The position numbers were made by a program, and so were the translations under genes. From Candidatus Doudnabacteria bacterium (GTDB lineage: Bacteria > Patescibacteriota > Doudnabacteria > UBA920 > O2-02-FULL-48-8): a stretch of DNA of 64,000 nt. Of this stretch, positions 12,739-63,282 are shown piece by piece. The first letter of the stretch is position 1, and every line of letters begins with the position of its first letter. The DNA lies in assembly GCA_039931165.1 (NCBI GenBank), contig JBDTSL010000003.1, positions 10,349 to 74,348 of the forward strand. Reading direction: 5' to 3'. Below the pieces are notes generated by a model. That model did not search any database, was not told the origin of the DNA, and saw nothing but the letters and a program-made list of their open reading frames with translations.

Positions 12739-12794
12739 AACGTATCTAGAGATAACAAAAAAACCTCGACATTAGTCGGGATTTTTTTAAATAT

Positions 12795-14239: not shown

Positions 14240-14345
14240 TCGAACAGCGTAAAGGCAAGATCTGGGTCGAGTCGAAAGGGGAGGTAAAGGCGAGGTCAAC
14301 ACCACGGAATTCGACCTGACCAAGACCCAAACACCGGCTTGAAAT
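14240..14345 (+). pseudogene. Truncated duplicate of the 3' end of the histidine-kinase gene (direct repeat of 12602-12740 with a 35-bp internal deletion)
   Basis: 'CGAACAGCGTAAAGGCAAGATCTGGGTCGAGTCG' and 'AAAGGCGAGGTCAACACCACGGAATTCGACCTGACCAAGACCCAAACACCGGCTTGAAA' recur at 12602-12740. Confidence 0.8.
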
Positions 14346-14411
14346 ATATCGCCCGATTTGTTAGAATTGGTTAGCGTTCGGGCGTAGCTCAGCGGTAGAG
14401 CAGCTGACTGT

Positions 14412-14981: not shown

Positions 14982-15025
14982 TAATCAGCGGGTCGCTGGT
15001 TCGAATCCAGCCGCCCGAGCCAAAT

Positions 15026-15056
15026 AAAAAAACCTGACTTCTGTCGGGTTTTTTTA
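15026..15056. terminator. Bidirectional terminator after the tRNA
   Basis: AAAAAAACCTGAC-ttct-GTCGGGTTTTTTT (one G-U pair in the stem). Confidence 0.7.
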
Positions 15057-15182
15057 TTTGTTTGACAGGCTGGATTCGAAGGGCAGAAGTGAGGCAAGAC
15101 CCCAGTCGCAGCCGAACGTCGACGGAAGCGAGGGCTCGCAGCTTCCGTCGCTGCCCCGGACATGAGCGCATCAGCGCGAATC

Positions 15183-15240
15183 CGAATCCAGCCGCCCGAG
15201 CCAAAAGAAAGAAACTGACTTCTGTCAGTTTCTTTCTTTT
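15183..15240 (+). repeat. Second copy of the tRNA 3' end (CGAATCCAGCCGCCCGAGCCAAA) plus a second terminator (AAAGAAAGAAACTGAC-ttct-GTCAGTTTCTTTCTTT): att-like scar
   Basis: A 21-nt exact repeat of 15002-15022. Both terminators share the core CTGACTTCTGTC. Inverted T-arm fragments GGCTGGATTCGAAGGG (15068-15082) and GGCGGATTCGAAGGG (15262-15273) follow each unit. Confidence 0.6.
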
Positions 15241-28360: not shown

Positions 28361-28430
28361 GTCGAATTTGCGAGGAGTCCCGACTTGTCGGGACGACGAA
28401 GCAATCTGCTCCTTAGAAATAGACTGCCAC
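28361..28430 (-). repeat. Family-A palindromic dispersed repeat, short intergenic copy (reverse orientation)
   Basis: Reverse complement: GTGGCAGTCTATTTC...AGATTGCTTCGTCGTCCCGACAAGTCGGGACTCCTCGCAAATTCG. Confidence 0.7.
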
Positions 28431-28486
28431 ACCCCGCCTTTGACTAATATTATTTTAATTTATGTTGGCGGGGCTCGCAGATTCGT

Positions 28487-41133: not shown

Positions 41134-41138
41134 GGATT

Positions 41139-41253
41139 AGATTGCTTCGTCGCCGCCAAGATTAAGCCTAGGTTATTAAAGCGGCTCCTCGCAAATGCGC
41201 CTCTGCGAGTGACTGCCATATTAGAAGGGATTATTCTGGGCAGTCGCGTGGCA
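41139..41253 (+). repeat. Family-A repeat, long intergenic copy with extra inverted repeats
   Basis: AGATTGCTTCGTCGCCGCCAAGATTAAG...AAAGCGGCTCCTCGCAAATGCG, then CTCTGCGAG...GACTGCC...GGCAGTCGCGTGGCAGTCTATTTC. Confidence 0.7.
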
Positions 41254-41255
41254 GT

Positions 41256-41600
41256 CTATTTCATTGACGTTACTACCGCCTCAAAGGCTTTGGGATTGCG
41301 CACCGCCAGTTCCGCCAACATTTTTTTATTCAGGCCGACATTGTTTTTATGCAGCAATGCCTGCAGTCTGCTGTAGCTTAATCCTTGCTCGCGTGAAGCG
41401 GCATTGATGCGGATGGTCCAAAGTTTTTTCATGTCGCGCTTGCGCAGCCTGCGGTGGCCGTAAGCATAGGAGTCGGCGTGCAGCAGGGCTTCTTTGGCCG
41501 CGATCGCATTTGTGCGCCGGCGGTTGGTAAACCCTTTTGTTCTTTTTAAAACATATTTTCGGCGTTTGTGCGCGGCAACTCCGCGTTTAACTCTTGTCAT
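41256..41600 (-). CDS. rplT: 50S ribosomal protein L20
   Basis: 'MTRVKRGVAAHKRRKYVLKRTKGF...SYAYGHRRLRKRDMKKLWI'. Confidence 0.95.
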   Translation of the reverse strand: MTRVKRGVAAHKRRKYVLKRTKGFTNRRRTNAIAAKEALLHADSYAYGHRRLRKRDMKKLWTIRINAASREQGLSYSRLQALLHKNNVGLNKKMLAELAVRNPKAFEAVVTSMK

Positions 41601-42548: not shown

Positions 42549-42932
42549 TGGTGGAGCTGGGGAGAATTGCACTCCCGTCCAAGAGATTTCAATAAATATT
42601 TCTACAAGTTTAGACCGCTTGAATTGTTACCCAAAACCATAGAAGCGGACTAAAGCGGTTTTGGCTAAGCCCTTAGTGTCCTTTGTCAGTCGGGCGTCAG
42701 ACAAAGTGAGTCCGAATAATATAACACCCGTATTCCACGCACAGACTTTGCGGAGCGGATGGGTTATCGCTTATTAAGCAACAGCCATAGCCGGAGAGAA
42801 CGCAAAAGCATTCTTTACGGTTTTTACCAATGAATTGGCATTTATGATTTGCCTTATCTTTTTAACCGAGAGATTAGGCTAATCGGACTTGCAATATTTA
42901 TCAAAGAACTCTTGTCGAATCTGAGCAGCCCC
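42549..42932 (-). ncRNA. ssrA: tmRNA (ssrA), 384 nt, immediately downstream of smpB
   Basis: 5' end GGGGCUGCUCAGAUUCGACAAG. 3' end GGACGGGAGUGCAAUUCUCCCCAGCUCCACCA. The acceptor stem has the G3-U70 Ala identity pair. An internal tag-like ORF reads ...AFAFSPAMAVA followed by TAA TAA. Confidence 0.85.
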
Positions 42933-45129: not shown

Positions 45130-48100
45130 ATGGATAAAAAATTATTTAAGCCAATAGACGCGAAACCGGACTTCCCCAAACTTGAGGAAGAGGTCTTGAA
45201 GTTTTGGGAAGAGAATCAGATTTTTGAAAAATCTTTGGAACAGACGCAAGAAGGGAAGCCGTATACTTTTTATGATGGTCCGCCTTTTGCCACCGGCTTG
45301 CCGCACTATGGCCATATTCTCGCGTCAGTGGTAAAAGATCTGTTCCCGCGCTACCAGACCATGAAAGGCAGATTTGTCCGCCGCAGATGGGGCTGGGATA
45401 CCCACGGTTTGCCGATCGAAGAATTGGTGGAACGCAAGCTTGGGATATCGGGCAAAAAAGACATAGAGCGAATCGGAATAAAAAAATTCAACGAAACCTG
45501 CCGCTCCATGGTCCTGGAGTATGTGGCAGAATGGCGTAAAATGGTCCGTAGAGTCGCGCGCTGGGTCGATTTTGATAATTCCTACAAGACCATGGACCGG
45601 GATTATATGGAATCGGTCTGGTGGGCTTTCAAGAAAACCTATGATAAAGGATTGATTTACGAAGGACGGAGAGTGCTTCTTTACTGCCCGAGGTGCGAGA
45701 CGCCTATTTCCAACTTTGAAGTGGCCATGGACAATAGTTATAAAGAAGTCACGGAAGAAGCGGTGACGGTGAAGTTTAAAGTGAAAGGACAGGAGAATAC
45801 ATATTTGTTGGCTTGGACGACCACGCCGTGGACTTTGCCCGGTAATGTGGCTTTGGCAGTGGGGGAGGATATTGAATATGTAAAAGTAGAAAAGGGTGGG
45901 GAGTTTTATATTGTGGCCAAAGAAAGAGTAAACTCTGTCTTTGCGAGCGAAGCGAAGCAATCTCAAAACAAGAAAGAGATTGCTTCGTCGCCGCCCAAGA
46001 TAGTCCTTGAGAATAAAGCGGCTCCTCGCAAAGACGTAGAGGCAGAATTCAAAGGCTCGGAACTTGTCGGCCTCGAATACGAGCCCTTGTTTGACGTGCC
46101 GTCTGTGGAATCCGATAAATCCTTTAAAGTTTATGCTGCGGATTTTGTAAATACCGAAGACGGCACCGGCATCGTCCATACAGCCGTGGTTTACGGCGAG
46201 GATGACTATAATCTCGGCATGAAAGTGGGTTTGCCAGTAGTTCCGCTACTTGATGAAAAAGGAATTTTTAACGACAAATCGCCAGAATTAGTTCGGGGAA
46301 AATATTTCAAAGACTCGGAAAAATTCATTAAGAAAGACCTGGAAAGCAGGGGATTGCTGTTCGCAAGAAAAATGCATCAGCATTCGTACCCGCACTGCTG
46401 GCGATGCGGGACCACGCTTTTTTACAATGCCATTCCCGCCTGGTTTATAAATATCCAAAAGATAAAGAAAGGCTTGCTTAAAACCAATGAAAAGGAGATC
46501 AATTGGTTTCCCGACCATCTGAAGCATGGCCGCTATCAGAAATCCGTGGAAGCTGCTCCGGATTGGAACATTTCCCGTAACAGGTATTGGGGCAATCCGA
46601 TTCCGGTCTGGAAGTGCGAAGCGGGACACAATACAGTCGTCGGAAGCATCAAGGATTTGGGTTTGTCAAAAAATACTTTTTATTTCATGAGGCACGGGCG
46701 CGCGGAAAACAATCTTTTGGGGTTGGTTGATTCTTGGCCGGATATTAAACATTATCCTCTAGTTCCTGAAGGAATCGAACAAGCCGAAACAAGCGCCAAA
46801 AAAATTAAGGAACTAGGCGGACTGGATTTAATATTTTCTTCGGATATTACCAGAACCAAACAAACCGCAGAAGTTGTTGGAGAAATATTTAATGTCAAAG
46901 TAAATTTTGATGAAAGAATAAGAGAGGCAAATAGCGGTGATTATAACGGGAGGACTTACGAGGACGTTAATCGAGATTTTCCATTTGAGTCCAGATGGGC
47001 TAAAGCTCAAAATGGCGGAGAGACAAATATCGAAATTCAGAAACGAATGCTCGATTTTGTCAAAGAAATTAATGCTAAATACCGGGGCAAGAAGATTTTA
47101 ATCGTCGGTCATGGCGACCCTTTGTTTATTTTGCAAAAATATTTCGGTTCAGAACGAAGTTATCCAAAATACGGCCAGGTTTACGAAATGGAGGTCAGTA
47201 TTGTTGATCTTCATCGCCCTTATATCGACGATGTCGTTCTCAAATGCGAGAAATGCGGCCAAGACGCGCGCAGAACGCCGGAAATATTCGATTCCTGGGT
47301 TGAGGCAGGCTCCATGCCTTTTTCCGAATATCATTATCCCTTCGATCAAAAAGAAACTTTCGAATCCCGGTTCCCGGGCCAATTCGTAGTCGAGTACATC
47401 GCCCAAACCCGGGCTTGGTTTTATGTCATGCACGTCATCTCATATATTTTGTTTGGCAAGGCTCCATTTGAAAATGTCGTGACCACGGGCACGATCCAGG
47501 CCGAGGATGGATCAAAAATGAGCAAATCCAAAAATAATTTTCCGGACCCGTGGATCGTCATTGAAAAATACGGAGTTGATGCCTTGCGGTTCTATCTGAT
47601 GAATTCACCCGTAATGCTGGCGGAAAATTTGGATTTCAGCGAGCGTGAGCTGGCCGTGGTTTACCGCAAGAATATCCTGATTCTTTGGAATGTTTATAAT
47701 TATTTCGTCACTTACGCCAATGAAGCGGGCTGGGAGCCGAAGCCCCCGGGATATAAGCCGGTGCTGGATAATGTATTGGACAAATGGATCGTGGCGAAAA
47801 CCCAGGAGTTGATTCTAGAGGTTACTCTGGAGTTGGATAATTACAATACTGTTAAAGCAACCCGCGCCATTGAGGCTTATATCAACGAGCTTTCAACTTG
47901 GTACCTGCGCAGGAGCAGGGGACGGAAAGATTCTCACTTTTTCGGCACCTTGCGCCACGCGCTGACGGTCCTGGCCAAAGTTTCCGCGCCGGTCATGCCC
48001 TATATGTCCGAATTGGTTTATTCGAATTTGAATAAAAATCCCGAAACCATATCCGTGCATTTGGCCAAGTGGCCGGAAAAGAAGGAATTGGACCAAGAAC

Positions 48101-48570
48101 AAAAGAAAATATTGGAGCAGATGCAGCAGGTAAGAGATCTGGTAGAGCAGGGACATGCGCTTCGCAAAGCTTCCAATATCCGCTTGAGGCAGCCATTGGA
48201 GTCATTTACTTATGATAAACAGCTATTGGCAAAGGATTTCGAAGAGATTTTGGCGGATGAATTGAATGTAAAATCGGTTAAATTCGGAAGCATTCTAGAA
48301 TTTGATCTCAAAATTACGCCTAAACTGAAAAATGAAGGCTTGGCCCGGGAGCTTGAACGGACAGTGCAGGAAATGCGGAAAAAGTCGGGCTTTAAGGTTG
48401 GCGAAAAGGCCAATTTATCGTATGATACAGAGGACAAGGAATTAAAAGCCGCTTTTGAGCTGTTTGACACAAAAAAGACATATATAGGGAAGATATCTCA
48501 AGGAAAAGGCGGGGAAGATGCGGAAATTGACGGAAAAAAAGTGTTTCTGTCTTTGCGAGGAGGCCAGTAG
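45130..48570 (+). CDS. ileS: Isoleucine--tRNA ligase (type 2, HYGH variant of HIGH)
   Basis: 'PPFATGLPHYGH' and 'KMSKSKNN'. 1146 aa. Carries an in-frame family-A repeat insertion (45976-46035). The last 6 codons and the stop lie within another family-A copy (48551-48605). Confidence 0.9.
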   Translation: MDKKLFKPIDAKPDFPKLEEEVLKFWEENQIFEKSLEQTQEGKPYTFYDGPPFATGLPHYGHILASVVKDLFPRYQTMKGRFVRRRWGWDTHGLPIEELVERKLGISGKKDIERIGIKKFNETCRSMVLEYVAEWRKMVRRVARWVDFDNSYKTMDRDYMESVWWAFKKTYDKGLIYEGRRVLLYCPRCETPISNFEVAMDNSYKEVTEEAVTVKFKVKGQENTYLLAWTTTPWTLPGNVALAVGEDIEYVKVEKGGEFYIVAKERVNSVFASEAKQSQNKKEIASSPPKIVLENKAAPRKDVEAEFKGSELVGLEYEPLFDVPSVESDKSFKVYAADFVNTEDGTGIVHTAVVYGEDDYNLGMKVGLPVVPLLDEKGIFNDKSPELVRGKYFKDSEKFIKKDLESRGLLFARKMHQHSYPHCWRCGTTLFYNAIPAWFINIQKIKKGLLKTNEKEINWFPDHLKHGRYQKSVEAAPDWNISRNRYWGNPIPVWKCEAGHNTVVGSIKDLGLSKNTFYFMRHGRAENNLLGLVDSWPDIKHYPLVPEGIEQAETSAKKIKELGGLDLIFSSDITRTKQTAEVVGEIFNVKVNFDERIREANSGDYNGRTYEDVNRDFPFESRWAKAQNGGETNIEIQKRMLDFVKEINAKYRGKKILIVGHGDPLFILQKYFGSERSYPKYGQVYEMEVSIVDLHRPYIDDVVLKCEKCGQDARRTPEIFDSWVEAGSMPFSEYHYPFDQKETFESRFPGQFVVEYIAQTRAWFYVMHVISYILFGKAPFENVVTTGTIQAEDGSKMSKSKNNFPDPWIVIEKYGVDALRFYLMNSPVMLAENLDFSERELAVVYRKNILILWNVYNYFVTYANEAGWEPKPPGYKPVLDNVLDKWIVAKTQELILEVTLELDNYNTVKATRAIEAYINELSTWYLRRSRGRKDSHFFGTLRHALTVLAKVSAPVMPYMSELVYSNLNKNPETISVHLAKWPEKKELDQEQKKILEQMQQVRDLVEQGHALRKASNIRLRQPLESFTYDKQLLAKDFEEILADELNVKSVKFGSILEFDLKITPKLKNEGLARELERTVQEMRKKSGFKVGEKANLSYDTEDKELKAAFELFDTKKTYIGKISQGKGGEDAEIDGKKVFLSLRGGQ
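45976..46035 (+). repeat. Family-A repeat inserted in frame in ileS (encodes EIASSPPKIVLENKAAPRKD)
   Basis: GAGATTGCTTCGTCGCCGCCCAAGATAGTCCTTGAGAATAAAGCGGCTCCTCGCAAAGAC. Only this frame of the element is open. Confidence 0.75.
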
Positions 48571-48682
48571 AATTGGGTCAAATTGTCTGGCCGACGAAGC
48601 AATCTTTTTACTCAAAAAACGAGATTGCTTCGCGACCGCCCAAGATTAAGTCTCATCGATAAAGCGGTCGCTCGCAAAGACA
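48551..48682. repeat. Two family-A repeat copies in opposite orientation: 48551-48605 (reverse, overlapping the ileS stop) and 48621-48682 (forward), between ileS and recO
   Basis: CTTTGCGAGGAGGCC...CGACGAAGCAATCT, then GAGATTGCTTCGCGACCGCCCAAGATTAAG...AAAGCGGTCGCTCGCAAAGAC. Confidence 0.7.
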
Positions 48683-48700
48683 GTAAGCAGTCCAAAAATT

Positions 48701-52340: not shown

Positions 52341-52695
52341 GGAAAGGGGGAGCAGGGTCCGCGAGTGGAGGGATTTGAAGGGATGAATTGTGAACTTGCT
52401 ATTCGATTTCCAGGATTCAGTGAACTTTTTGAGTGAGGAAATGAGAAGTAAAATAAGAACTCCTTATAAACACCAATCATGGCTTGCTTTATCAACTCAA
52501 CCACAGAAATGGAAATTTATTCCGTAAAAGCAAGCTAATCTTGGGCTAACTGTTCTTCATAAAGCAACAATAATCACAGCCCAAATCTTATCAAAATCAG
52601 CTTAATCGGTCAATACTTTTTGTGCTGTTTTCGGTGTATAAGTCGGAATAAAGCCTGTTTTAAAGGTTATTATTCATAGGCAATATCCACAGAAG

Positions 52696-52777
52696 ATAGG
52701 TTATAGGTGGTAGGTGATAGGTTATAGTAAAAAAAGCCATATTTTTCTACAACCTACAACCTAAAACCTATAACCTG
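52696..52777. repeat. Family-B heptamer repeats arranged as an inverted pair upstream of pcrA
   Basis: ATAGGTTATAGGTGGTAGGTGATAGGTTATAG, then a 20-nt spacer, then CTACAACCTACAACCTAAAACCTATAACCT. This can fold into a long imperfect hairpin. Confidence 0.65.
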
Positions 52778-52792
52778 TATACTGCTTAAGCT

Positions 52793-54802
52793 ATGAAAGA
52801 TAATTTGGGCCTGAATCAGGCGCAACTTGAAGCCGTAACCGCTCCCATGGGGCCGGTGTTGATCTTGGCCGGCGCCGGCAGCGGAAAAACCCGTGCTTTG
52901 ACCATGCGCATAGTTTATCTGATAAAAAAGATCGGATTGAACCCGCGGAACATTTTGGCCGTGACTTTCACGAATAAAGCCGCAGGCGAAATGAAAGCAA
53001 GGATCAATAAATTGCTTGGGAAAAATTTAACAGGCCTGCCGACAATGGGAACTTTTCACTCCATCGGGGTCAAGATTTTGAGGATCGAAGGAAAGTTGGT
53101 GGGATTGGATCCCAATTTTTTGATCAATGACAATCAGGATCAGGAAAGCCTGCTGAAGGATATTCTGATCCGTCTGCGGGTGGACCCGACCAAATACAAG
53201 CCTTCGGTATTCGCCAATATCATCGACCGGGCAAAAAATAATCTGGAAGAACCGGAAGACCTGCCCGATGATGATAAGACATTCTCAAGAACGGCAAAAA
53301 AAGTTTACGCGGAGTACCAGGAACAATTGCGTAAAAATAACGCCGTGGACTTCGGCGATCTTTTGGTGCTGCCGGTCCGGATCTTCCAGAAGCACCCGGA
53401 GGTTTTGAAAAAATATCAGCAGCTCTGGCAATATATTTTGGTCGATGAGTATCAGGACACCAACTATGCCCAATATATTTTTACCAGGCTTTTGGCCGCG
53501 GCCCATGAAAATATTTTTGTGGTCGGGGATGACGCCCAGGCGATTTACGGTTTTCGGGGGGCCAACCTCCAAAACATCCTTGATTTCGAAAAAGATTATC
53601 CCAAATCCCGTGTCATCAGATTGGAACAGAATTACCGCTCCACGGCTCCGATCCTGGCGGTTGCTGAGAAGATCATTGAATTAAGCCCGCGGCAGCACAA
53701 AAAAAAGCTCTGGACAGAAAACGAGCAGGGTAAAACCCCGACTTTATTCATTGCCGAGGATGAATTGTCTGAAGCCTACTTTGTGGCCGGCAAGATCATT
53801 GAACACCAAGACGGCAAGCCTGAAGGCATGACTTATGACTATGATAATGACGATGACCAGACAATATTGGGCAGGATTATGCGCAATGCCCGCTCCAAAG
53901 TCTTGCCCAAGCTTAAGAACCGGATCGGACTGAATAATATCGCTATTTTATACCGCACGCATGCCCAATCCCGTGTTTTGGAAGAGGTCATGATCGAAGC
54001 GTCTATTCCGTACCAGATCGTCGGCGGCCTGAAATTTTACGAGAGAAAGGAAATCAAGGATATTTTAAGTTACTTGCGGCTTTTGGTGAATCCGAATGAC
54101 CTGATCAGCCTGAAACGGGTGATCAACACCCCTCCGCGCGGCATCGGGCCCAAAAGTTTTGATCTGCTGAAGGAATCTTTGATCGAAAGAGACGAAAAAT
54201 TATTGAATGAGCTGATGGCTGCCAAGCCCGCTGTCAAGAATTTTTTTGAGATGCAGGACCTGCTGAATAGGCTCGACGAGTCGGGAAATCTGCTCGATCT
54301 ACTGCGAAGTGTCCTGAAGCTGACCGGCTACGAAAGTTTTTTGCGCGACGGGTCGGAAGAAGGTGAAGGACGGTGGGAGAACGTCCAGGAATTGTTTAAC
54401 GTTGCCGGAAGTTTTCGGGGATTGCCCTGGAAAGAAGGCTTGAATCAGTTTTTGGAGGAAGTGGCGCTGATGACGCAGGCGGATGAGGTCGATTTAAATT
54501 CACCGAAAGTAACTCTGATGACATTGCATCAGGCCAAGGGTCTGGAATTTGATCTGGTGTTTTTAGTCGGGCTTGAGGAAGGATTGCTGCCGCACGCCCG
54601 TTCGCTGCTCGAATCGAAAGACATTGCCGAAGAAGTGCGCCTGGCGTATGTCGGAGTGACGCGCGCGCGCAAGGTTCTGTACTTGGTGTATGCTCAATCC
54701 CGTAAGCAATACGGGTTACGCAATGTCAGCATCCCTTCAAGGATCCTGAAAGCGATCCCGGAAGAACTGCTTGATATTCAGCAGGGACTTTCATCGTGGT
54801 AA
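52793..54802 (+). CDS. pcrA: ATP-dependent DNA helicase PcrA/UvrD
   Basis: 'LILAGAGSGKTRALTMRIVYLI' Walker A, 'VDEYQDTN', 'VGDDAQAIYGFRGA' and 'VTLMTLHQAKGLEFD'. Confidence 0.9.
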   Translation: MKDNLGLNQAQLEAVTAPMGPVLILAGAGSGKTRALTMRIVYLIKKIGLNPRNILAVTFTNKAAGEMKARINKLLGKNLTGLPTMGTFHSIGVKILRIEGKLVGLDPNFLINDNQDQESLLKDILIRLRVDPTKYKPSVFANIIDRAKNNLEEPEDLPDDDKTFSRTAKKVYAEYQEQLRKNNAVDFGDLLVLPVRIFQKHPEVLKKYQQLWQYILVDEYQDTNYAQYIFTRLLAAAHENIFVVGDDAQAIYGFRGANLQNILDFEKDYPKSRVIRLEQNYRSTAPILAVAEKIIELSPRQHKKKLWTENEQGKTPTLFIAEDELSEAYFVAGKIIEHQDGKPEGMTYDYDNDDDQTILGRIMRNARSKVLPKLKNRIGLNNIAILYRTHAQSRVLEEVMIEASIPYQIVGGLKFYERKEIKDILSYLRLLVNPNDLISLKRVINTPPRGIGPKSFDLLKESLIERDEKLLNELMAAKPAVKNFFEMQDLLNRLDESGNLLDLLRSVLKLTGYESFLRDGSEEGEGRWENVQELFNVAGSFRGLPWKEGLNQFLEEVALMTQADEVDLNSPKVTLMTLHQAKGLEFDLVFLVGLEEGLLPHARSLLESKDIAEEVRLAYVGVTRARKVLYLVYAQSRKQYGLRNVSIPSRILKAIPEELLDIQQGLSSW

Positions 54803-54803
54803 T

Positions 54804-55751
54804 ATGACCAATGAAATTGAATTAAAAAATTATTTTCGCGCTCACGGACTTAAACCCAAAGATTATTTGGGACAGAATTTTTTGATTGACGAAGATGTGC
54901 TGAGAGAGATGATCGGGATCGCGGAATTAAAGCCGACCGATGTCGTGCTGGAGGTCGGTCCGGGTTTGGGTGTTTTGACAAAAGAACTCGCGGCCCGGTG
55001 CAGGGAAGTACTAGCGGTGGAAAAAGACAGCAAACTTTTCAAATTGCTTAAAGAAGAACTTATCGCATCTGCGAGCGGCCGATTAGTTGAGGATAAATCT
55101 CAGCGGCCGCGTGGCAGTCTAATCCTGGGTCAGATTGCTTCGTCGCCGCCAGAGATCACTCTTAGAGAAAAAAGCGGCTCCTCGCAAATTCGATTGTTCA
55201 ATGATGATATTTTAAAATTCCATGTTGCTGAAAATATCAAAGGCGAATACAAAGTCGTGGCCAATATCCCATATTATCTGACCTCAAAATTAATTCAGAA
55301 TTTTTTGGAAAATGTTCATCAACCGAAGTTACTCGTGATCATGATCCAGAAAGAAGTAGGGGAGCGGATAGTGGCTGGCCCGGGGAAACTTTCAATGCTC
55401 GGCATCTCCGTGCAGATTTACGCCGATGCGGAAATAGCGGCCCAGGTTCCCAGGCAAAGCTTCTGGCCGGTCCCGGAAGTTGATTCGGTGATCCTTAAAA
55501 TATTACCGCGAAATAAATATTCACAGATCACCGACCATAGATTATTCTTCCGCATCCTGAAAATGGCCTTTGCCGGAAAAAGAAAACAGATCGCCAATAG
55601 TTTAAGCAATGGATTGAATAAACCGAAGGAAGATATTACGAAGATGTTGCGCCTTGCAAGCATCGATCCTACCACAAGACCGCAAGATGTGAAAATAGAA
55701 CAGTGGATAGAGTTGTATAAGGTAGCTCAGATGGTTGTTGACGTAAAATAG
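54804..55751 (+). CDS. rsmA: 16S rRNA (adenine1518/1519-N6)-dimethyltransferase, with a ~45-aa repeat-derived insertion
   Basis: 'GQNFLIDEDVL...VLEVGPGLGVLTKEL' and 'VANIPYYLTS'. Confidence 0.9.
   Translation: MTNEIELKNYFRAHGLKPKDYLGQNFLIDEDVLREMIGIAELKPTDVVLEVGPGLGVLTKELAARCREVLAVEKDSKLFKLLKEELIASASGRLVEDKSQRPRGSLILGQIASSPPEITLREKSGSSQIRLFNDDILKFHVAENIKGEYKVVANIPYYLTSKLIQNFLENVHQPKLLVIMIQKEVGERIVAGPGKLSMLGISVQIYADAEIAAQVPRQSFWPVPEVDSVILKILPRNKYSQITDHRLFFRILKMAFAGKRKQIANSLSNGLNKPKEDITKMLRLASIDPTTRPQDVKIEQWIELYKVAQMVVDVK
55066..55192 (+). repeat. Family-A repeat inserted in frame in rsmA/ksgA (encodes ...GQIASSPPEITLREKSGSSQI...)
   Basis: TCTGCGAGCGGCC...GCGGCCGCGTGGCAGTCTAATCCTGGGTCAGATTGCTTCGTCGCCGCCAGAGATCACTCTTAGAGAAAAAAGCGGCTCCTCGCAAATTCG. 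Confidence 0.7.
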
Positions 55752-55966: not shown

Positions 55967-56341
55967 ATGCAAAGAAATAGAAACAAACTGGTGGTTAGTC
56001 TTATTGCTTTAGCTATTTTTTTTATCGGCGTTTTATCTATATCCGCGCGTGAGGCAAAAGCCCAGGCAACCGGCCTGCCATTCGGCGGCCGGCTATTATT
56101 TTTTTCTCCGGTGATTATAACTACCTTTGTTAATTGTCCGGCTTTAGCTCATGTTATTAATTTTGGCCCAGGCCCGAAATATCTGAACCTCCTTCTTCCA
56201 CCATACCAGCCAAGGTTATTTTATAATTACTATACTTCCGGGGTAGCTGTCCTGGGCTCCTACTATCCGACACCGATCCCGTTTAATTGTCCTTTTCAGC
56301 CGATTTTTCCGTCGTTTTATTTTGGAACCAGCGCCAGATAA
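55967..56341 (+). CDS. Small secreted Pro/Tyr-rich protein with two 'NCP' motifs
   Basis: Signal peptide, 'FVNCPALAHV' and 'FNCPFQP'. An RBS GAGAGG lies upstream. Confidence 0.4.
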   Translation: MQRNRNKLVVSLIALAIFFIGVLSISAREAKAQATGLPFGGRLLFFSPVIITTFVNCPALAHVINFGPGPKYLNLLLPPYQPRLFYNYYTSGVAVLGSYYPTPIPFNCPFQPIFPSFYFGTSAR

Positions 56342-56352
56342 TAAATAAAAAA

Positions 56353-57285
56353 ATGTTCAGAAATAAAAAGCAAAATAAAAACCAATACGGGACGTTCAAT
56401 ACCAAGCCGGAAAACAAGAAAAATGTCCGCGTTTTGATGACGGCCTTTGCGGCCGTGATTTTTGTTTTGGGAGTCGGGATTGTTTTGTATAAAAATCATA
56501 ATCAACCAAAAATCCAAAGCGCGGTTGTTGAAACCGCTGCCGAACCGATACCCGGCTGGTGGTACAAGCATTTTTTTAACTCAAGTGTTTGCGATCAGGA
56601 TAGCTGCAAACCCGAATCCGATCCTGATAATGACAAGCTTTCAAATTTGCAGGAATATTATTATGGGACCGAACCTCTAAACCCGCGCACAGTCGGCGAT
56701 AAGCTTTCGGACGGAGAATTAGTATCTCAGGGATTTGATCCTTCTAAAACCGGTCATCAAACTTTTGACGAAACTCTGAACCCGGATAATATTATGGGAG
56801 AGAGCCTGGTTTTTAACACAGACGTAAAACAGATCATCGGAAGCTTGACTGATATCACAAAAGTTAAATTGCCGGAGATTAAAACCCAGGATGTCATTGT
56901 CTCGGGGGATAATTCAAAGCAAGCCGTCGCTGACTATTTAAACAGAGTTAATCTCGCGGCTTTTAAATATTTTAACTTTAATGTCGAGCAGTCCCTTAAA
57001 ACAGCCCAAATAACCGGGAGCAGCGATGAGATTGATAATATAAAATTCAGAGCGGCCCGGTTGCTCATTGATCTAAAAACCATCTCTGTTCCCAAAGACG
57101 CCGTGCAGCTGCACAAATACTACATAGGTTTAATGAGCCTTGTCCCGAGCGTTATTTCTTTGCCGCAAAGCGACCCGGACAATACGGCAAATACTTCTTT
57201 AGCTGACGATATTTGGTACGATAACGCGCAGGCTTATCTGGTGCTGATCCAAAAAATTGCCATAGAAAAACAAAAACTCAAATAG
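56353..57285 (+). CDS. Hypothetical single-pass membrane protein
   Basis: 'MFRNKKQ...' then the TM 'VLMTAFAAVIFVLGVGIVL'. Starts just after the upstream stop. Confidence 0.4.
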   Translation: MFRNKKQNKNQYGTFNTKPENKKNVRVLMTAFAAVIFVLGVGIVLYKNHNQPKIQSAVVETAAEPIPGWWYKHFFNSSVCDQDSCKPESDPDNDKLSNLQEYYYGTEPLNPRTVGDKLSDGELVSQGFDPSKTGHQTFDETLNPDNIMGESLVFNTDVKQIIGSLTDITKVKLPEIKTQDVIVSGDNSKQAVADYLNRVNLAAFKYFNFNVEQSLKTAQITGSSDEIDNIKFRAARLLIDLKTISVPKDAVQLHKYYIGLMSLVPSVISLPQSDPDNTANTSLADDIWYDNAQAYLVLIQKIAIEKQKLK

Positions 57286-57286
57286 C

Positions 57287-58903
57287 ATGAAAAGTTTCCG
57301 CAAAAAATCTTTTGCTTCGGCCGCGCTTGGCGTATTCCTGCTAAGTCAGTTGTTTTTTGTCGCGTCGGTGACGCTCATTCCGAATCCACAGCCTGCCCAG
57401 GCCCAAGCCGCAGCCGCGGCCTTGGCCACTGTCCCTACCGCGGACTTGCCTACGGTTTATGAAAGGATAGCCATAGGGATTGCCAGAGCGTTCCTGCAAA
57501 AATTCACCGAGAAATTCCTGACCAAATTTACGAATCTGCTGGTGAATAAATATAAGATCAGAAATTTTCTTTATTACGATCAGGTTTTAACCGACTATTA
57601 CCTGAATAATTATATATACGACAAAATTCAAGACCCCGATCTGCGGAATATTTATACTTTATTGGAGCGGGCATATGTGAGCGGGGCTTCAACAGGAACT
57701 ACGAATGCCCCTGATCCGAACAAGGCCTTGATCCCGCAGCTAAACAAAGCAGTCAGCGATTATTATAAAAAAATTGGCGGGATTGACCCGAATAAAGTTT
57801 ATTATCCCGCCCGCAATGTCAGTGATAGGGAATACTTTGCCACCGCTCAGGCATATTTTGCCAATCCACCCAGCTTTACCGAACAAAACTTGCGCGGGCA
57901 ATTCGGCGCGTTCCAAACTTCGGCGACCACAGCGGCGCAACTGGAAATTATCGTAGGCAATAGCCTGAAAGCCGGCCGCATCATCGGCGGCACCTGCGAT
58001 TTTTCTGGCCCTATTCCAGCCGGCCAGGTCGACCCGAAAACTTCGCCGGCGGCCTGTCAGTCATTGGGAGGAAGTTGGACGCCTTCACTTTTGGATAAAG
58101 CCCGTTCTTTCATAGACAACCCTTCTGGTTTCGTCCAAAATACCTTAGATGCTTTTATCAGCCAGCACATCGGCAATCTTTATAATCCGAGCACCGATTT
58201 TTGGACCCAAGTCGGCGGGGCATTCGGCTCCTTCATTTGGAATCAGCTCGGACTGAATAAGTCCTCCCAGGATATATTAATCGAAGACCCGAGGGGTTAT
58301 GTGGGCGAGGACTTTGGCGCAGCAACTCAAACAGACAATACATTGTCGCTGGAGAAAGGCCAGATTGATATAGACACAGATGGCATCTCGGACGGAGTTG
58401 ACTACGACGGTGACGGCAGAATTGATATTTGTTCTTACGGCGGCAATCCTCCGGATGCTTGCGTGGGATCCAGAACGCTCATTACTGCCGGATCGGGGGG
58501 CGGAGGGTTGACTTGCACCGATGTTCCTACTGCCATGGCATGTCAAGCGCCAAACCACACTGATTTAGTGGCTCGGGTAAAAACTTACCTTGTTTCGCGA
58601 GGCCAGCAATTTAATACCTTGTGCGACGCTTTCGAAATTGTGAAGCGCGTGGCTTGGGCTCTGCGAGGGGAGGGCGCGGGATTAATGACCACCTTCCACT
58701 CAACCCAATGTAATGGGCTTTCGGCTGATATTGTCGCTTATACTGACGGTTCGGGCGTTGATGTGCTTGGTAGCGCCGGACCACCGCCATCAGATGGAAG
58801 CGCGTATGATATTCCGGTATGGCTGCCCGGTCCTGATAACCCGGAAGCCGGAGTTGATTATGCCCCGCCCGCCGATCCGGGCGATCCGCCGGGAAGTTAT
58901 TAG
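57287..58903 (+). CDS. Large secreted protein with Asp/Gly-rich (calcium-binding-like) segment
   Basis: Signal peptide and 'DTDGISDGVDYDGDGRIDICSYGG'. Contains multiple Cys. Confidence 0.45.
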   Translation: MKSFRKKSFASAALGVFLLSQLFFVASVTLIPNPQPAQAQAAAAALATVPTADLPTVYERIAIGIARAFLQKFTEKFLTKFTNLLVNKYKIRNFLYYDQVLTDYYLNNYIYDKIQDPDLRNIYTLLERAYVSGASTGTTNAPDPNKALIPQLNKAVSDYYKKIGGIDPNKVYYPARNVSDREYFATAQAYFANPPSFTEQNLRGQFGAFQTSATTAAQLEIIVGNSLKAGRIIGGTCDFSGPIPAGQVDPKTSPAACQSLGGSWTPSLLDKARSFIDNPSGFVQNTLDAFISQHIGNLYNPSTDFWTQVGGAFGSFIWNQLGLNKSSQDILIEDPRGYVGEDFGAATQTDNTLSLEKGQIDIDTDGISDGVDYDGDGRIDICSYGGNPPDACVGSRTLITAGSGGGGLTCTDVPTAMACQAPNHTDLVARVKTYLVSRGQQFNTLCDAFEIVKRVAWALRGEGAGLMTTFHSTQCNGLSADIVAYTDGSGVDVLGSAGPPPSDGSAYDIPVWLPGPDNPEAGVDYAPPADPGDPPGSY

Positions 58904-58913
58904 GAATATTTAA

Positions 58914-61490: not shown

Positions 61491-61506
61491 CAATAAGTAT
61501 AGAGCT

Positions 61507-63150
61507 ATGAATAATAAATTTACACTAAATAAAACTGAGTTCAATGGCGATTTGGCCGATCCTAAAATCTTTGCTGAGATCGTTTTTCTTACTGATTTAG
61601 TTAAAGACAGTGAGTCAAAAGGGGATACATATAAAGTATTGCAAGAATTGGATCACTTGCTGAAAAAAAATACAGCCCAGCTCGGAGAATTGAAGCAAGG
61701 CTATGATAATTTGCTACTAGACCTGCGATTGACTTGTTTCCAACTGCTATCGGATGACGAAAAAGAGGTTATTTTGAAAAGCAAAATGTCTGTAGCTTAT
61801 AAAAATAACATTGATTTGACACGTTCCATCGCTTTAATGTTTATCCCGTATTTTACTCAGGATGATTTTGTAAAGTTAAACAGAATTACTCGATATTTGG
61901 AGGAAAATGACGAACTGATCGGGACGAATAATATTACAACATCGGATGGAAAGACAGTTGGTCCCTTAGTATCAAACTGGATTAAAGATTATAAATCAAA
62001 AGCTATAGAAGATAAAGGGACACTTAACATAGTTTCTTATTTTACCCAAAGCCCGAACTCCAAGGGATTAACCAAAGGACAACTCGATTTCCTAAAATAT
62101 ATATTGGATTTTTATGACTGGTTGAGATTCAAGGCTAGTAATACGTCGCTTATTCCTGAAGAAGAACCCGTAGCGCCGAGACCTTCTGCACCGCTGAGAA
62201 ATGTCACGCCAAACAGGACTACTATACCAGCCGTTTCTTCATCACCAGTTAGACCTCCGCAGCAGGCACAAGCAAAACCCGCCGCGCCTAGAGCTCTGCC
62301 AACCGAGTTTGAGAAGAAGCTGGCTCAAGTTTCGGCTCCTCCTCAAAGGCTCAACCCTGCTCCAAAGCCAGTTTTTCAGGAAGTTAAACCCGCCGCTCCA
62401 AAGCCACCGGCTACCGAATTTGAGAAAAAACTGGCCCAAGTTTCGGCTCCGTCTTCCCACGGCCAGGATTTGGAGATTATCCGCAAGCAAATGGAAAGTT
62501 CCAACCCGCCGGTTTCCGGCGTGCCTCGGTCGCTTACAAGGGGAGAAGGGCGAATTGAAAGCGCCAATTTGACGCCGGAAGAGATCAAGCGGGAAATCAA
62601 CACGCCGGAATTGCCACAATATAAAGAACCGGTGCGGCCTGTTGTTAAGCCAGTCTTGCCGCCAATTGTTGTGGCGCCGAAACCCGTGATATATAAACCT
62701 GTGGCGCCCAAGGCGGTTTCCGCGCCCGCACAAGTGGCGCCAATCCATAAAGAGATTGCTTCGTCGCCTCCAAAATTAACCCAAAGAACCGAGGCTCCTC
62801 GCAAAGACGGGTTAACTTCTTTAGATAAAATCAGCATTGTCGATGATTTAAAAAAGGTTGACCTGGAACTTTTCAGGCAAGCTCCGGTACAAAAACAGAT
62901 AGCGGATATAAAATACCAGGTATCAAGATTAGCTGCGGCCAATAAGCTTTTGCCTTACTATACGGTCAGCGCTTTTGAACAAAGCCCGCTATTCCAGGCC
63001 TACCTGCGGGTTGGTTTGGCGATAATCGAAGACAGCGCCACGGACCGGGCGGTGGCATTCAGAAACGCGGCCAACAAGGTAGGCAGCAATCTGACTTTGC
63101 AGGAGTTTGAAGCAATCGCGGATCTGCGGAAAGAAATAGAGCGGTTATAG
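61507..63150 (+). CDS. Hypothetical protein with Pro-rich tandem repeats (LPTEFEKKLAQVSAP, two copies)
   Basis: 547 aa. DNA direct repeat at 62298-62348 and 62410-62460. Also carries the family-A in-frame insert. Confidence 0.5.
   Translation: MNNKFTLNKTEFNGDLADPKIFAEIVFLTDLVKDSESKGDTYKVLQELDHLLKKNTAQLGELKQGYDNLLLDLRLTCFQLLSDDEKEVILKSKMSVAYKNNIDLTRSIALMFIPYFTQDDFVKLNRITRYLEENDELIGTNNITTSDGKTVGPLVSNWIKDYKSKAIEDKGTLNIVSYFTQSPNSKGLTKGQLDFLKYILDFYDWLRFKASNTSLIPEEEPVAPRPSAPLRNVTPNRTTIPAVSSSPVRPPQQAQAKPAAPRALPTEFEKKLAQVSAPPQRLNPAPKPVFQEVKPAAPKPPATEFEKKLAQVSAPSSHGQDLEIIRKQMESSNPPVSGVPRSLTRGEGRIESANLTPEEIKREINTPELPQYKEPVRPVVKPVLPPIVVAPKPVIYKPVAPKAVSAPAQVAPIHKEIASSPPKLTQRTEAPRKDGLTSLDKISIVDDLKKVDLELFRQAPVQKQIADIKYQVSRLAAANKLLPYYTVSAFEQSPLFQAYLRVGLAIIEDSATDRAVAFRNAANKVGSNLTLQEFEAIADLRKEIERL
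62752..62808 (+). repeat. Family-A repeat inserted in frame in the hypothetical gene 61507-63150 (encodes EIASSPPKLTQRTEAPRKD)
   Basis: GAGATTGCTTCGTCGCCTCCAAAATTAACCCAAAGAACCGAGGCTCCTCGCAAAGAC. Confidence 0.7.
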
Positions 63151-63151
63151 A

Positions 63152-63196
63152 GAGGTTGTAGGTTGTAGGTTGTAGGTGGTAGGTTATAGGTTGTAG
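63152..63196. repeat. Family-B heptamer repeat (AGGTTGT)n, intergenic
   Basis: GAGGTTGTAGGTTGTAGGTTGTAGGTGGTAGGTTATAGGTTGTAG. Confidence 0.7.
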
Positions 63197-63282
63197 AATA
63201 AAAGGACCAGATGGTTCTTTTTTGATATAATGGATATCCACCCCAGACTTGATCTGGGGTCCATTTCAATTATTAATATCAA

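What the first reader, a model, noticed from the sequence alone, without database searches (positions are those of the whole stretch)
55066..55192. KsgA/RsmA carries a ~45-aa insertion derived from the same repeat
rsmA is 326 aa, versus ~260-290 aa typical. The extra segment 'ASASGRLVEDKSQRPRGSLILGQIASSPPEITLREKSGSSQIRLF' coincides exactly with a long family-A repeat copy. The nucleotide sequence is near-identical to the intergenic copy at 41139-41253, including the GCGTGGCAGTCTA head. This is an independent insertion event, not a duplication of the ileS segment.
Basis: seen in the sequence. Interest (0 to 1): 0.6.

Follow-up and report, generated by a model that had tools for sequence, protein, structure and literature searches.

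The report
Palindromic repeat translated inside rsmA
A 133-base hairpin-forming repeat that is normally found between genes sits in frame inside the rRNA methyltransferase gene rsmA of a Candidatus Doudnabacteria genome, adding a floppy 44-residue loop; this is a new example of a known kind of selfish DNA in coding genes, not a new kind of system.

Summary
rsmA (54804-55751, 315 aa from the ATG) carries a 133-nt element at 55062-55194 encoding residues 87-130. Solved KsgA structures and most homologues have only about 7-10 residues there. The element is an inverted doublet. Its right arm is AGATTGCTTCG-hairpin-CTCGCAAA. Its left arm is a diverged reverse complement, CTGCGAG-hairpin-CGTGGCAGTCTA. 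The window holds 8 right-arm units against 0.8 expected. These include in-frame copies in ileS and ORF 61507-63150, and one that supplies the ileS stop codon. The copy at 41139-41258 is not near-identical: it has the same modules in the opposite order, and the shared arm is about 76% identical. Only one of six frames of the rsmA element is open, and it is the one used. AlphaFold2 places the insert as a low-confidence loop between helix aB and strand b3. Another Doudnabacteria RsmA has the same doublet at the same site. 22 of 120 homologues have long loops there, falling into at least four unrelated peptide classes; the five checked at DNA level are palindromic. The unit occurs in at least 10 phyla, in plasmids of cultured bacteria and in viral contigs. 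Its format fits the published CGTC-tagged REP superfamily, which includes Rickettsia RPE-4/6 and is known to sit in frame inside genes. Verdict: new member of a known kind, of moderate interest.

The parts
54804..55751 (+). rsmA/ksgA coding sequence (315 aa from the ATG; the mechanical ORF from TTG 54771 gives 326 aa and overlaps uvrD)
   Evidence: Pfam RrnaAD 180.8 bits against a cutoff of 24. Identical to NCBI protein P0001. Foldseek to B. subtilis KsgA 6ift gives TM 0.84. Motifs GPGLG, E73, D135 and NIPY154-157 fall in invariant columns.
55062..55194 (+). Whole inserted palindromic doublet (133 nt), encoding residues 87-130: IASASGRLVEDKSQRPRGSLILGQIASSPPEITLREKSGSSQIR
   Evidence: Absent from the nearest homologues and from PDB KsgA. 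GC is 0.534 against 0.426 for the rest of the gene. Only 1 of 6 frames is open. RNA fold of 55060-55200 gives -54.7 kcal/mol, z=-3.8. pLDDT is 40-65.
55062..55121 (+). Left arm (module B). Outer box ATCGCATCTGCGAG at 55062-55075. Stem CGGCCG at 55076-55081 pairs with 55104-55109, enclosing a 22-nt loop. Inner box CGTGGCAGTCTA at 55110-55121. This arm is a diverged reverse complement of the right arm.
   Evidence: Read from the sequence. The stem covaries in L001 (CGACCGC/GCGGTCG) and across 16 doublets.
55122..55131 (+). 10-nt spacer that forms the loop of the inner stem
55132..55194 (+). Right arm (module A). Head box AGATTGCTTCG at 55132-55142. Stem GCCGCC at 55145-55150 pairs with GCGGC at 55174-55178. 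Tail box CTCGCAAA at 55181-55188, followed by TTCGAT, which pairs with the outer left box.
   Evidence: 88% identical to ileS copy 45977-46032.
41136..41258 (+). Intergenic copy with the modules in the opposite order (A then B, tail to tail). It fills the whole rplT-map spacer, and the rplT stop codon (41256-41258, minus strand) lies in the B box.
   Evidence: Fold -46.7 kcal/mol, z=-3.0.
45938..46037 (+). In-frame doublet in ileS (a short reverse-complement arm plus an A arm), encoding VFASEAKQSQNKKEIASSPPKIVLENKAAPRKD
   Evidence: Absent from L002 IleS; present at the same site in L124 IleS.
48550..48683 (+). Doublet at the ileS/recO junction. The left arm encodes the last residues (FLSLRGGQ) and the stop codon of IleS.
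28362..28478 (-). Intergenic B-A doublet with the same architecture as the rsmA copy but different stems (CCCCGCC/GGCGGGG and TCCCGAC/GTCGGGA)
62753..62810 (+). Single A unit in frame in ORF 61507-63150, encoding KEIASSPPKLTQRTEAPRKD

Best explanation
The segment is a non-autonomous, hairpin-forming repeat of the REP / Rickettsia-palindromic-element kind. It is an inverted doublet of a roughly 60-nt unit that landed in, or was retained in, the loop between helix aB and strand b3 of the Rossmann domain of RsmA.

Shown. It is repeat DNA. It is in frame, in its only open frame. The rest of RsmA keeps its fold and its catalytic motifs. The same and other palindromic repeats occupy the same loop in related genomes.

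Inferred. The element is transcribed and translated through as a disordered, polar surface loop. This loop lies on the edge of the sheet away from the SAM and RNA sites, so the enzyme still works. Only insertions that keep the frame, avoid stops and fall in tolerant loops survive in housekeeping genes. That filter would explain why this loop collects such inserts. The element's conserved boxes are kept by the element's own biology (propagation, or DNA/RNA hairpin recognition), not by RsmA function. How it moves is unknown. No transposase is linked and no target duplication is made, as reported for CGTC-tagged REPs.
For: Repeat origin: 8 units in the window against 0.8 expected, shared boxes with intergenic copies, and GC of 53% against 43%.

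Insertion relative to the family: the Pfam break, 44 residues against 7 in PDB KsgA, and 98 of 120 homologues with a loop of 14 residues or fewer.

Translation through: the used frame is the only open one of six. All 11 genic copies that I checked are in frame. They are window rsmA, ileS, the ileS C-terminus and ORF 61507; L001 rsmA; L123 rsmA; L124 ileS, uvrD, rsmA and ORF 17088; and the L068 ORF. By contrast, nearly all of 42 metagenomic doublets have stops in every frame.

Tolerated loop: the AlphaFold2 core is confident, while residues about 90-125 have pLDDT 40-65 and lie between H76-89 and E128-132. The KsgA fold gives TM 0.84-0.90. Catalytic motifs are invariant.

Hot spot: 22 of 120 homologues carry loops of 15 aa or more here, falling into at least 4 unrelated peptide classes. 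Five were checked at DNA level. Window-type doublets are in L001, L123 and L124. Other palindromes are in L288 (-30.5), L289 (-45.6) and L125 (-71.8 kcal/mol).

Hairpin selection: stems covary between copies.

Precedent: in-frame REP and RPE insertions in housekeeping genes (PMC3733652; PMC10969869).
Against: There is no direct evidence that the peptide is made, since I have no proteome or transcriptome. Between the window and L001, the four boxes (60 nt) are 100% identical. The flanking coding DNA is only 60-68% identical, and the rest of the element 48%. A dead, merely tolerated insert should not keep its boxes, so the element has some ongoing function, is homogenised, or re-inserts. The claim that the loop is far from the 30S contact surface rests on Rossmann topology and was not measured. 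The frame test has some ascertainment bias, because broken genes would not be found by protein search.
Confidence: 0.75

Rival explanations
1. The element is still active or functional at the DNA or RNA level inside rsmA. Possible roles are a substrate for excision and re-insertion, for gene conversion from other copies, or a structured RNA that modulates rsmA expression. On this view the peptide is a by-product.
For: The boxes are 100% conserved between window and L001 although the flanks are 60-68% identical. P0001 and P0003 each have insert-free nearest neighbours. This fits repeated site-specific gain, or gain followed by repeated loss. The fold is strong (z=-3.8). Stems covary. The unit is conserved across phyla and in viral contigs.
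Against: No linked enzyme was found within about 4 kb of 119 loci. There is no orientation bias relative to genes in bacterial genomes, which argues against a sense-RNA role. The invariance of the inner boxes in the metagenome set is partly imposed by my search pattern. This rival is compatible with translation-through rather than exclusive of it.
Confidence: 0.3
2. The insert is an adaptive, lineage-specific extension of RsmA, for example a new contact with the unusual CPR ribosome or with a partner protein.
For: The insert persists at the same loop in several Doudnabacteria lineages. The A arm is usually read in the same polar frame, EIASS...PRKD.
Against: The peptides at this loop fall into at least 4 unrelated classes, and 82% of homologues have none. 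The same DNA sits in intergenic spacers and in unrelated proteins. The non-box part is only 48% identical between the two orthologous inserts. The segment is predicted to be disordered.
Confidence: 0.07
3. The segment is removed before or during translation, acting like an intron or intervening sequence, or through translational bypassing. It would then never appear in the protein.
For: It is a very stable hairpin with conserved ends. Hairpin intervening sequences are excised from rRNA in many bacteria (background knowledge).
Against: It always keeps the frame and avoids stops, which removal would not require. Rfam finds no intron or ribozyme, at gathering threshold or at E<=10. There is no in-frame stop or take-off/landing codon pair as in T4 gene 60. 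At 44 aa it is far too short for an intein.
Confidence: 0.04
4. The segment is an assembly or binning artefact, with a repeat collapsed or chimerically joined into rsmA in a metagenome-assembled genome.
For: The source is a MAG, and repeats are known to confuse assemblers.
Against: The same architecture appears at the same codon in independent samples and assemblies: JGI 3300052992 (L001), NCBI GCA_001777655.1 (L124) and JGI 3300072492 (L123). The reading frame is intact. The unit also occurs in cultured isolates.
Confidence: 0.02

Closest known systems
CGTC-tagged REPs (Di Nocera et al. 2013, BMC Genomics 14:522, PMC3733652), which include Rickettsia RPE-4/RPE-6 and Neisseria dRS3
   Same: These are short palindromic units with a terminal CGTC/TGTC tag, A-T pairs at the first stem positions and a 3-nt tail. 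Read on the reverse strand, our unit is (C/T)GTC-ATTGC...GCAAT-CTC. Inverted dimers predominate. No dedicated transposase is known. They are spread over several phyla. Copies sit in frame in housekeeping genes, including uvrA/B/C, UvrD and DNA polymerase I.
   Different: The stem is only about 5 bp (ATTGC/GCAAT). It is followed by conserved unpaired boxes and a variable apical hairpin of 10-40 nt, instead of an 8-9 bp stem with a 4-5 nt loop. The encoded peptides (VIARSEATKQS, EIASS..PRKD) are not those listed for CGTC-1 to CGTC-4 (VIPAKAGIQ, LDSRLRGND, VIPGLDPGIH, VIPVLDTGI). The long doublets in this genome have CGCAT/CGAAT instead of the CGTCA tag. The consensus figures of the paper were not readable, so identity with a listed family could not be excluded by sequence.
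Rickettsia palindromic elements, RPE-1 type (Ogata et al. 2000, Science 290:347; cited in PMC10969869)
   Same: A selfish palindromic repeat of about 100-150 nt inserted in frame in many unrelated essential genes, at positions compatible with the protein fold. This is the same phenomenon in another reduced genome with a host-associated lifestyle.
   Different: There is no sequence relation that I could test. The host is a CPR bacterium. The element family is not confined to one genus but occurs in at least 10 phyla and in viral contigs.
REPIN/RAYT systems (Bertels and Rainey 2011, PMC3116915)
   Same: Two short palindromic units in inverted orientation, separated by a short spacer, form the repeated unit and fold into one long hairpin.
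   Different: There is no GTAG tag. No RAYT was found near any copy. REPINs are extragenic and inherited vertically within a lineage, whereas this unit is cross-phylum.
MITEs
   Same: Small, non-coding, multi-copy elements with inverted ends that can fuse in frame with host ORFs (PMC10969869).
   Different: No target-site duplication was found in 289 units. No parent insertion sequence with the same ends was identified.

Membership tests
KsgA/RsmA 16S rRNA dimethyladenosine transferase (Pfam PF00398) | Profile match above the curated cutoff | tested here: met
   180.8 bits against a cutoff of 24, in two stretches split by the insert.
KsgA/RsmA 16S rRNA dimethyladenosine transferase (Pfam PF00398) | SAM-binding GxGxG motif, acidic residues after b2 and b3, and the catalytic N-[IL]-P-Y motif | tested here: met
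   G52 P53 G54 G56, E73, D135 and N154 I155 P156 Y157 are invariant columns in alignment A1.
KsgA/RsmA 16S rRNA dimethyladenosine transferase (Pfam PF00398) | Two-domain fold: a Rossmann domain plus a helical C-terminal domain | tested here: met
   AlphaFold2 pTM 0.80. Foldseek gives 6ift TM 0.84 and 3tqs TM 0.90.
KsgA/RsmA 16S rRNA dimethyladenosine transferase (Pfam PF00398) | Dimethylation of A1518/A1519 with the insert present | not testable with these tools
   Needs complementation of a ksgA mutant, or primer extension.
CGTC-tagged REP superfamily (PMC3733652) | Terminal CGTC (or TGTC) tag next to the stem | tested here: met
   In 289 units, downstream positions +1 to +4 are G 0.90, A 0.92, C 0.94 and A/G 0.88, which reads (T/C)GTC on the other strand. 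The G and A at +1/+2 were fixed by the search pattern in the viral subset only. The long doublets in this window, including the rsmA copy, have CGCAT/CGAAT instead.
CGTC-tagged REP superfamily (PMC3733652) | Stem of 8-9 bp starting with complementary A-T pairs, loop of 4-5 nt, and a 3-nt tail | tested here: inconclusive
   The stem starts AT (ATTGC/GCAAT) and has a CTC/CTA tail. However, it is only about 5 bp, with conserved unpaired boxes and a variable region of 10-40 nt.
CGTC-tagged REP superfamily (PMC3733652) | Inverted dimers predominate; the opposite arrangement is rare | tested here: met
   13 partners with tags outward and 0 of the opposite type at score >=30. The window has 4 doublets with tags outward and 1 of the opposite type. 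I could not check how this maps onto the paper's HH/TT naming.
CGTC-tagged REP superfamily (PMC3733652) | No dedicated transposase flanked by the repeats | tested here: met
   No recurrent neighbouring protein family was found in 119 loci. Only about 4 kb on each side was examined.
CGTC-tagged REP superfamily (PMC3733652) | Sequence identity with one of the families CGTC-1 to CGTC-4 | tested here: not met
   The peptides listed for intragenic CGTC-1 to CGTC-4 differ from ours, and none of our motifs occurs in the supplements. The consensus figure itself was not readable.
Rickettsia palindromic elements (in-frame selfish repeats) | Multi-copy palindromic repeat inserted in frame in several unrelated housekeeping genes | tested here: met
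   rsmA, ileS, uvrD and further ORFs.
Rickettsia palindromic elements (in-frame selfish repeats) | Insertion at positions compatible with the fold (surface loops) | tested here: met
   Low-pLDDT loop between aB and b3, with the core unchanged. The distance to the ribosome interface was not measured.
Rickettsia palindromic elements (in-frame selfish repeats) | Sequence homology to RPE families | not tested
REPIN/RAYT | GTAG tag and an associated RAYT (Y1 transposase) flanked by the repeats | tested here: not met
   No GTAG at either end. No shared neighbouring protein. A whole-genome search for RAYT was not possible.
MITE | Target-site duplication flanking terminal inverted repeats | tested here: not met
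   No k-mer of 2-8 nt is shared between the flanks above chance in 289 units.
Intron / intein / bypass element | Recognisable ribozyme or intein motifs, and independence from the host reading frame | tested here: not met
   Rfam finds none. The insert is 44 aa with no intein blocks. It is always in frame and free of stops.

The most novel reading that the evidence does not exclude
The unit GAGATTGCTTCG-[variable hairpin]-CTCGCAA(A/T)GAC may be an undescribed, still-active pan-bacterial element. It is found in at least 10 phyla, in plasmids of cultured Methylosinus, Calothrix, Halomonas and Legionella, and in more than 120 viral contigs, where neighbouring copies are co-oriented 33:4. Its boxes would be held invariant by a conserved but unidentified recognition machinery. 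In CPR bacteria it would repeatedly home to the same loops of essential genes (RsmA aB-b3, IleS, UvrD). The identical doublets in P0001 and P0003 would then be independent site-specific insertions rather than shared ancestry.
Probability: 0.25. Interest if true: 0.7.

Novelty: new member of a known kind. Interest (0 to 1): 0.4.

Why it matters
This extends the phenomenon of selfish palindromic DNA inside essential genes, known from Rickettsia and from Opitutus and other REP-rich bacteria, to the Candidate Phyla Radiation. CPR genomes are tiny and densely coded, which leaves few neutral landing sites.

There is a practical consequence. Many length anomalies and low-complexity loops in CPR proteins may be repeat insertions rather than adaptations. 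The odd peptides they create (EIASS..PRKD, VIARSEATKQS, SLRGA..RRSNL, CHCEE..DEAIS) can mislead annotation and alignment.

The cross-phylum conservation of the boxes, with no linked enzyme, restates the open question raised for CGTC REPs: what moves or maintains them? The rsmA loop, occupied by different repeat families in related genomes, is a natural system for studying gain and loss.

Tried and rejected
1. Link to 23S-rRNA-IVS / bAvd-like four-helix-bundle genes. This was a lead from memory, prompted by such a gene lying next to rsmA in L002. phmmer against all ORFs of 119 loci hit only L064, so I rejected it. That gene is flanked by a different palindrome.

2. Any linked transposase. All-against-all clustering of ORFs of 90 aa or more around 119 copies gave no shared family. 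The 'transposase' next to the Calothrix copy is an IS1595 zinc-ribbon fragment, not a Y1 enzyme.

3. Known RNA family. Rfam found only a tmRNA elsewhere at gathering threshold. At E<=10 over 54950-55300 it found only chance snoRNA matches outside the element.

4. Target-site duplications: none found.

5. Sense-strand RNA function. There is no orientation bias relative to neighbouring genes in bacterial genomes. A roughly 2:1 antisense bias appears in viral contigs, but the ORF calls there are unreliable.

6. A conserved protein motif encoded by the unit. All six frames are used in viral contigs.

7. Literature search by nucleotide strings and by encoded peptides returned only unrelated primer matches or nothing. 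CPR plus MITE/REPIN terms returned nothing relevant.

8. Protein search with the 44-aa insert alone returned nothing, because no candidate shared three 5-residue words with the query. That search was wasted.

9. Circular permutation of a ribozyme-like four-way junction. The two module orders in rsmA and at 41139 suggested this. It is explained more simply: one module is the diverged reverse complement of the other.
Full report
WHAT IS THERE

The window comes from a Candidatus Doudnabacteria (CPR/Patescibacteria) metagenome-assembled genome. The RsmA protein is identical to an NCBI entry on a 102,960-bp contig. The mechanical ORF 54771-55751 starts at a TTG and gives 326 aa. The ATG at 54804 lies two bases after the uvrD stop and gives the annotated 315-aa protein.

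Pfam RrnaAD matches at 180.8 bits, but in two stretches that break at about profile position 72/73. phmmer against PDB aligns residues 5-87 and 132-304 to B. subtilis KsgA residues 9-91 and 99-283. So 44 residues face 7. The closest homologues (58-64% identity, 276-278 aa) have a five-residue loop, KGEKN or similar, at this place.

ANATOMY OF THE INSERT

I place the element at 55062-55194 (133 nt). It starts exactly at codon 87 and encodes IASASGRLVEDKSQRPRGSLILGQIASSPPEITLREKSGSSQIR.

- Right arm (55132-55194): AGATTGCTTCG, then a GCCGCC/GCGGC stem-loop, then CTCGCAAA plus TTCGAT.
- Left arm (55062-55121): ATCGCATCTGCGAG, then a CGGCCG/CGGCCG stem-loop, then CGTGGCAGTCTA.

The left arm is a diverged reverse complement of the right arm. 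Compare the reverse complement of A, GTCTTTGCGAG..CGAAGCAATCT, with B, CTGCGAG..CGTGGCAGTCTA. The two arms therefore pair with each other, giving an outer stem, two side hairpins and an inner stem-loop. The fold energy is -54.7 kcal/mol with z=-3.8. The element has 53% GC against 43% for the rest of rsmA, and only one of its six frames is free of stops, the one in use.

THE FAMILY IN THE WINDOW

With two substitutions allowed per box, there are 8 right-arm units against 0.8 expected, with a maximum of 3 in 50 shuffles. There are also three left-arm modules. They form six loci.

- 28362-28478: minus strand, same architecture, intergenic.
- 41136-41258: the modules are in the opposite order. The locus fills the rplT-map spacer and contains the rplT stop codon.
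- 45938-46037: in frame in ileS.
- 48550-48683: the first arm encodes the last eight residues and the stop codon of IleS.
- 55062-55194: the rsmA copy.
- 62753-62810: in frame in ORF 61507-63150.

These are documented. The stems differ between copies but stay complementary: GCCGC/GCGGC, GGCCAG/CTGGCC, GACCGC/GCGGTC, GCCTC/GAGGC and TCCCGA/TCGGGA.

The two share exact blocks of 20, 19 and 14 nt. The 14-nt block lies on the other side of the A arm, and by my hand count the A arms are about 76% identical. The best colinear relative is the ileS arm, at 88% over 57 nt. The ileS doublet has a different left arm, so the rsmA insert is not a copy of it.

RELATED GENOMES

Synteny (ileS-recO-...-uvrD-rsmA) is kept in four other Doudnabacteria contigs.

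- L002, the closest relative, has none of the elements by strict motif.
- L001 (P0003, 60% identical) has the same B-A doublet at the same codon, with a compensatory change in the B stem (CGACCGC/GCGGTCG).
- L124 and L123 have variant doublets there, in which the base stem has changed from ATTGC/GCAAT to ATCGC/GCGAT.
- L124 also has doublets in frame in ileS (at the same site as the window), in uvrD, and in another ORF.

Among 120 RsmA homologues, 22 have loops of 15 residues or more at this site. They fall into at least four unrelated peptide classes. Those checked at DNA level are all strong palindromes: L288 at -30.5, L289 at -45.6 and L125 at -71.8 kcal/mol. P0001 and P0003 each have insert-free nearest neighbours. 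The loop is therefore a hot spot. I could not decide between one old gain with many losses and repeated gains.

One result does not fit a dead insert. Between the window and L001, the four boxes (60 nt) are 100% identical. The flanking coding DNA is only 60-68% identical, and the rest of the element 48%.

STRUCTURE

AlphaFold2 on a 19-sequence alignment gives a confident KsgA fold: pTM 0.80, and TM 0.84-0.90 to solved KsgA structures. Residues about 90-125 have pLDDT 40-65. They lie between helix 76-89 (aB) and strand 128-132 (b3, QIRLF). The start of b3 is encoded by the end of the element. The motifs GPGLG, E73, D135 and NIPY are intact.

By Rossmann topology, the loop that enters b3 lies on the edge opposite the cofactor site. 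That is an inference, not a measurement.

THE ELEMENT OUTSIDE THIS LINEAGE

- Genomes. These include the cultured Pedobacter and Gracilimonas. I estimated about 135 chance hits for this pattern, so the raw count proves little. However, unspecified flanking positions are conserved (G before the unit and GAC after it). The variable region also folds better than shuffled versions (p=1.6e-7).
- Plasmids. The AATGAC variant, which I recalled from memory, matches plasmids of Methylosinus, Methylocystis, Calothrix, Trichormus, Halomonas, Novosphingobium and Legionella. All these matches are unannotated.
- Viral contigs. More than 120 IMG/VR contigs carry it, and neighbouring copies are co-oriented 33:4.
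- Context in genomes. 82% of copies are intergenic, with no orientation bias relative to genes. No target duplication is made. No protein family is linked. Partners, where present, face with the tagged ends outward (13:0).
- The B-A junction. It occurs in 40 metagenome loci in a long form and a short form. Almost all have stops in every frame. RNAalifold supports the outer stem and the covarying B hairpin.

COMPARISON WITH WHAT IS KNOWN

Di Nocera et al. 2013 (PMC3733652) sorted REPs into GTAG-tagged and CGTC-tagged superfamilies. They describe CGTC REPs as follows:

- a terminal CGTC or TGTC tag;
- A-T pairs at the first two stem positions;
- a 3-nt tail;
- mostly inverted dimers;
- no dedicated transposase;
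- presence in five phyla;
- copies in frame in housekeeping genes, including uvrA/B/C, UvrD and DNA polymerase I.

They also report that Rickettsia RPE-4 and RPE-6 are CGTC REPs. Read on the other strand, our unit is (C/T)GTC-ATTGC...GCAAT-CTC, which fits this format. It differs in having a short stem, conserved unpaired boxes and a variable apical hairpin. Its encoded peptides are not those listed for CGTC-1 to CGTC-4. A review of prokaryotic MITEs (PMC10969869) treats RPEs as the extreme case of in-frame fusion. I found no paper that describes this in CPR bacteria or gives this sequence.

VERDICT

The insert is real and repeat-derived, it arose independently of the ileS copy, and it is most likely translated as a tolerated disordered loop. 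It is a new member of a known kind, namely intragenic REP/RPE-type palindromes. Two points stand out as modestly interesting. One is the hot-spot behaviour of the RsmA loop across Doudnabacteria. The other is the unexplained invariance and cross-phylum spread of the boxes. How the element moves, and whether it still does, remains open.

Noticed in passing
window 45130-48570 (IleS residues 517-694): IleS carries a complete histidine-phosphatase (His_Phos_1, PF00300) domain inserted inside the catalytic domain (E=6.8e-33). The same architecture is present in the IleS of all four syntenic Doudnabacteria contigs (L002, L123, L124, L125).
   Followed up: partly
window 48550-48605 and 41246-41258: Repeat arms supply gene ends. 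The last eight residues and the stop codon of IleS (FLSLRGGQ*) are encoded by a repeat arm, where L002 has a different C-terminus. The rplT stop codon lies inside the CGTGGCAGTCTA box of the copy that fills the whole rplT-map spacer.
   Followed up: partly
window 43737-43787, 52690-52784, 63148-63204; L002 10842-11230: A second palindrome family (GGTTATAGG / CCTATAACC arms) is present. In L002 and L003 such arms flank a 23S-rRNA-IVS / bAvd-like four-helix-bundle gene inserted right after rsmA. The window has 'empty' palindromes of this type and no such gene after rsmA.
   Followed up: partly
L123 1843-2241; L124 9678-9962: Small genes (PDDEXK_3, and a 94-aa GIY-YIG) are wedged between conserved syntenic genes, and each is bracketed by inverted repeats. 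The GIY-YIG flank reads CGTC-ATTCCGGA-CTTGA-TCCGGAAT-CTA, a textbook CGTC-type REP. This suggests hairpin-bounded mini-gene cassettes.
   Followed up: no
L124 8582-8660 (uvrD); L125 uvrD: UvrD of a related Doudnabacteria carries an in-frame doublet of the same family (SVFARSPDSSGRRSNLIQRSPRLAGGEARDD). L125 has a different insert nearby. The window's UvrD has neither.
   Followed up: partly
RsmA homologues P0003, P0081, P0087, P0095 (alignment A1); L288 about 2600-2750: Three further loops of RsmA carry inserts in some Doudnabacteria: after ENVHQ, after EIAAQ, and before KYPE. The one checked at DNA level (L288) is again a strong palindrome (-55 kcal/mol).
   Followed up: partly
viral loci L128-L247, e.g. 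L143 2696-2819, L138, L165, L174: The unit is frequent in IMG/VR contigs, with up to four copies per contig. Neighbouring copies are co-oriented 33:4, and L143 has tandem arrays. The unit is mostly antisense to the neighbouring ORFs. I did not check whether these contigs are truly viral.
   Followed up: partly
metagenome loci L254, L269, L275, L285, L286: In low-GC contigs the short doublet is followed by tandem copies, about 23 nt apart, of the tail box alone (..TTCCTCGCAATGACGGGGAAA..).
   Followed up: no
window 42549-42932 (-): tmRNA gene (Rfam RF00023, 125 bits).
   Followed up: no
window 12602-12746 vs 14240-14350; 15002-15059 vs 15183-15240; 62270-62339 vs 62381-62450: Other direct repeats are unrelated to the finding. 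There is a 97%-identical pair about 1.6 kb apart. There is a pair beginning CGAATCCAGCCGCCCGAGCCA followed by hairpin-T runs, which looks like tRNA 3' ends with terminators. There is also a 111-nt-spaced internal repeat in ORF 61507-63150.
   Followed up: no
window 56287-63150; L123/L124 11000-21000: Downstream of rsmA the syntenic contigs encode type-IV-secretion-like proteins (TrbL, PrgI, TraC-like, PIN). The corresponding window ORFs had no Pfam hit where tested (61507-63150).
   Followed up: no
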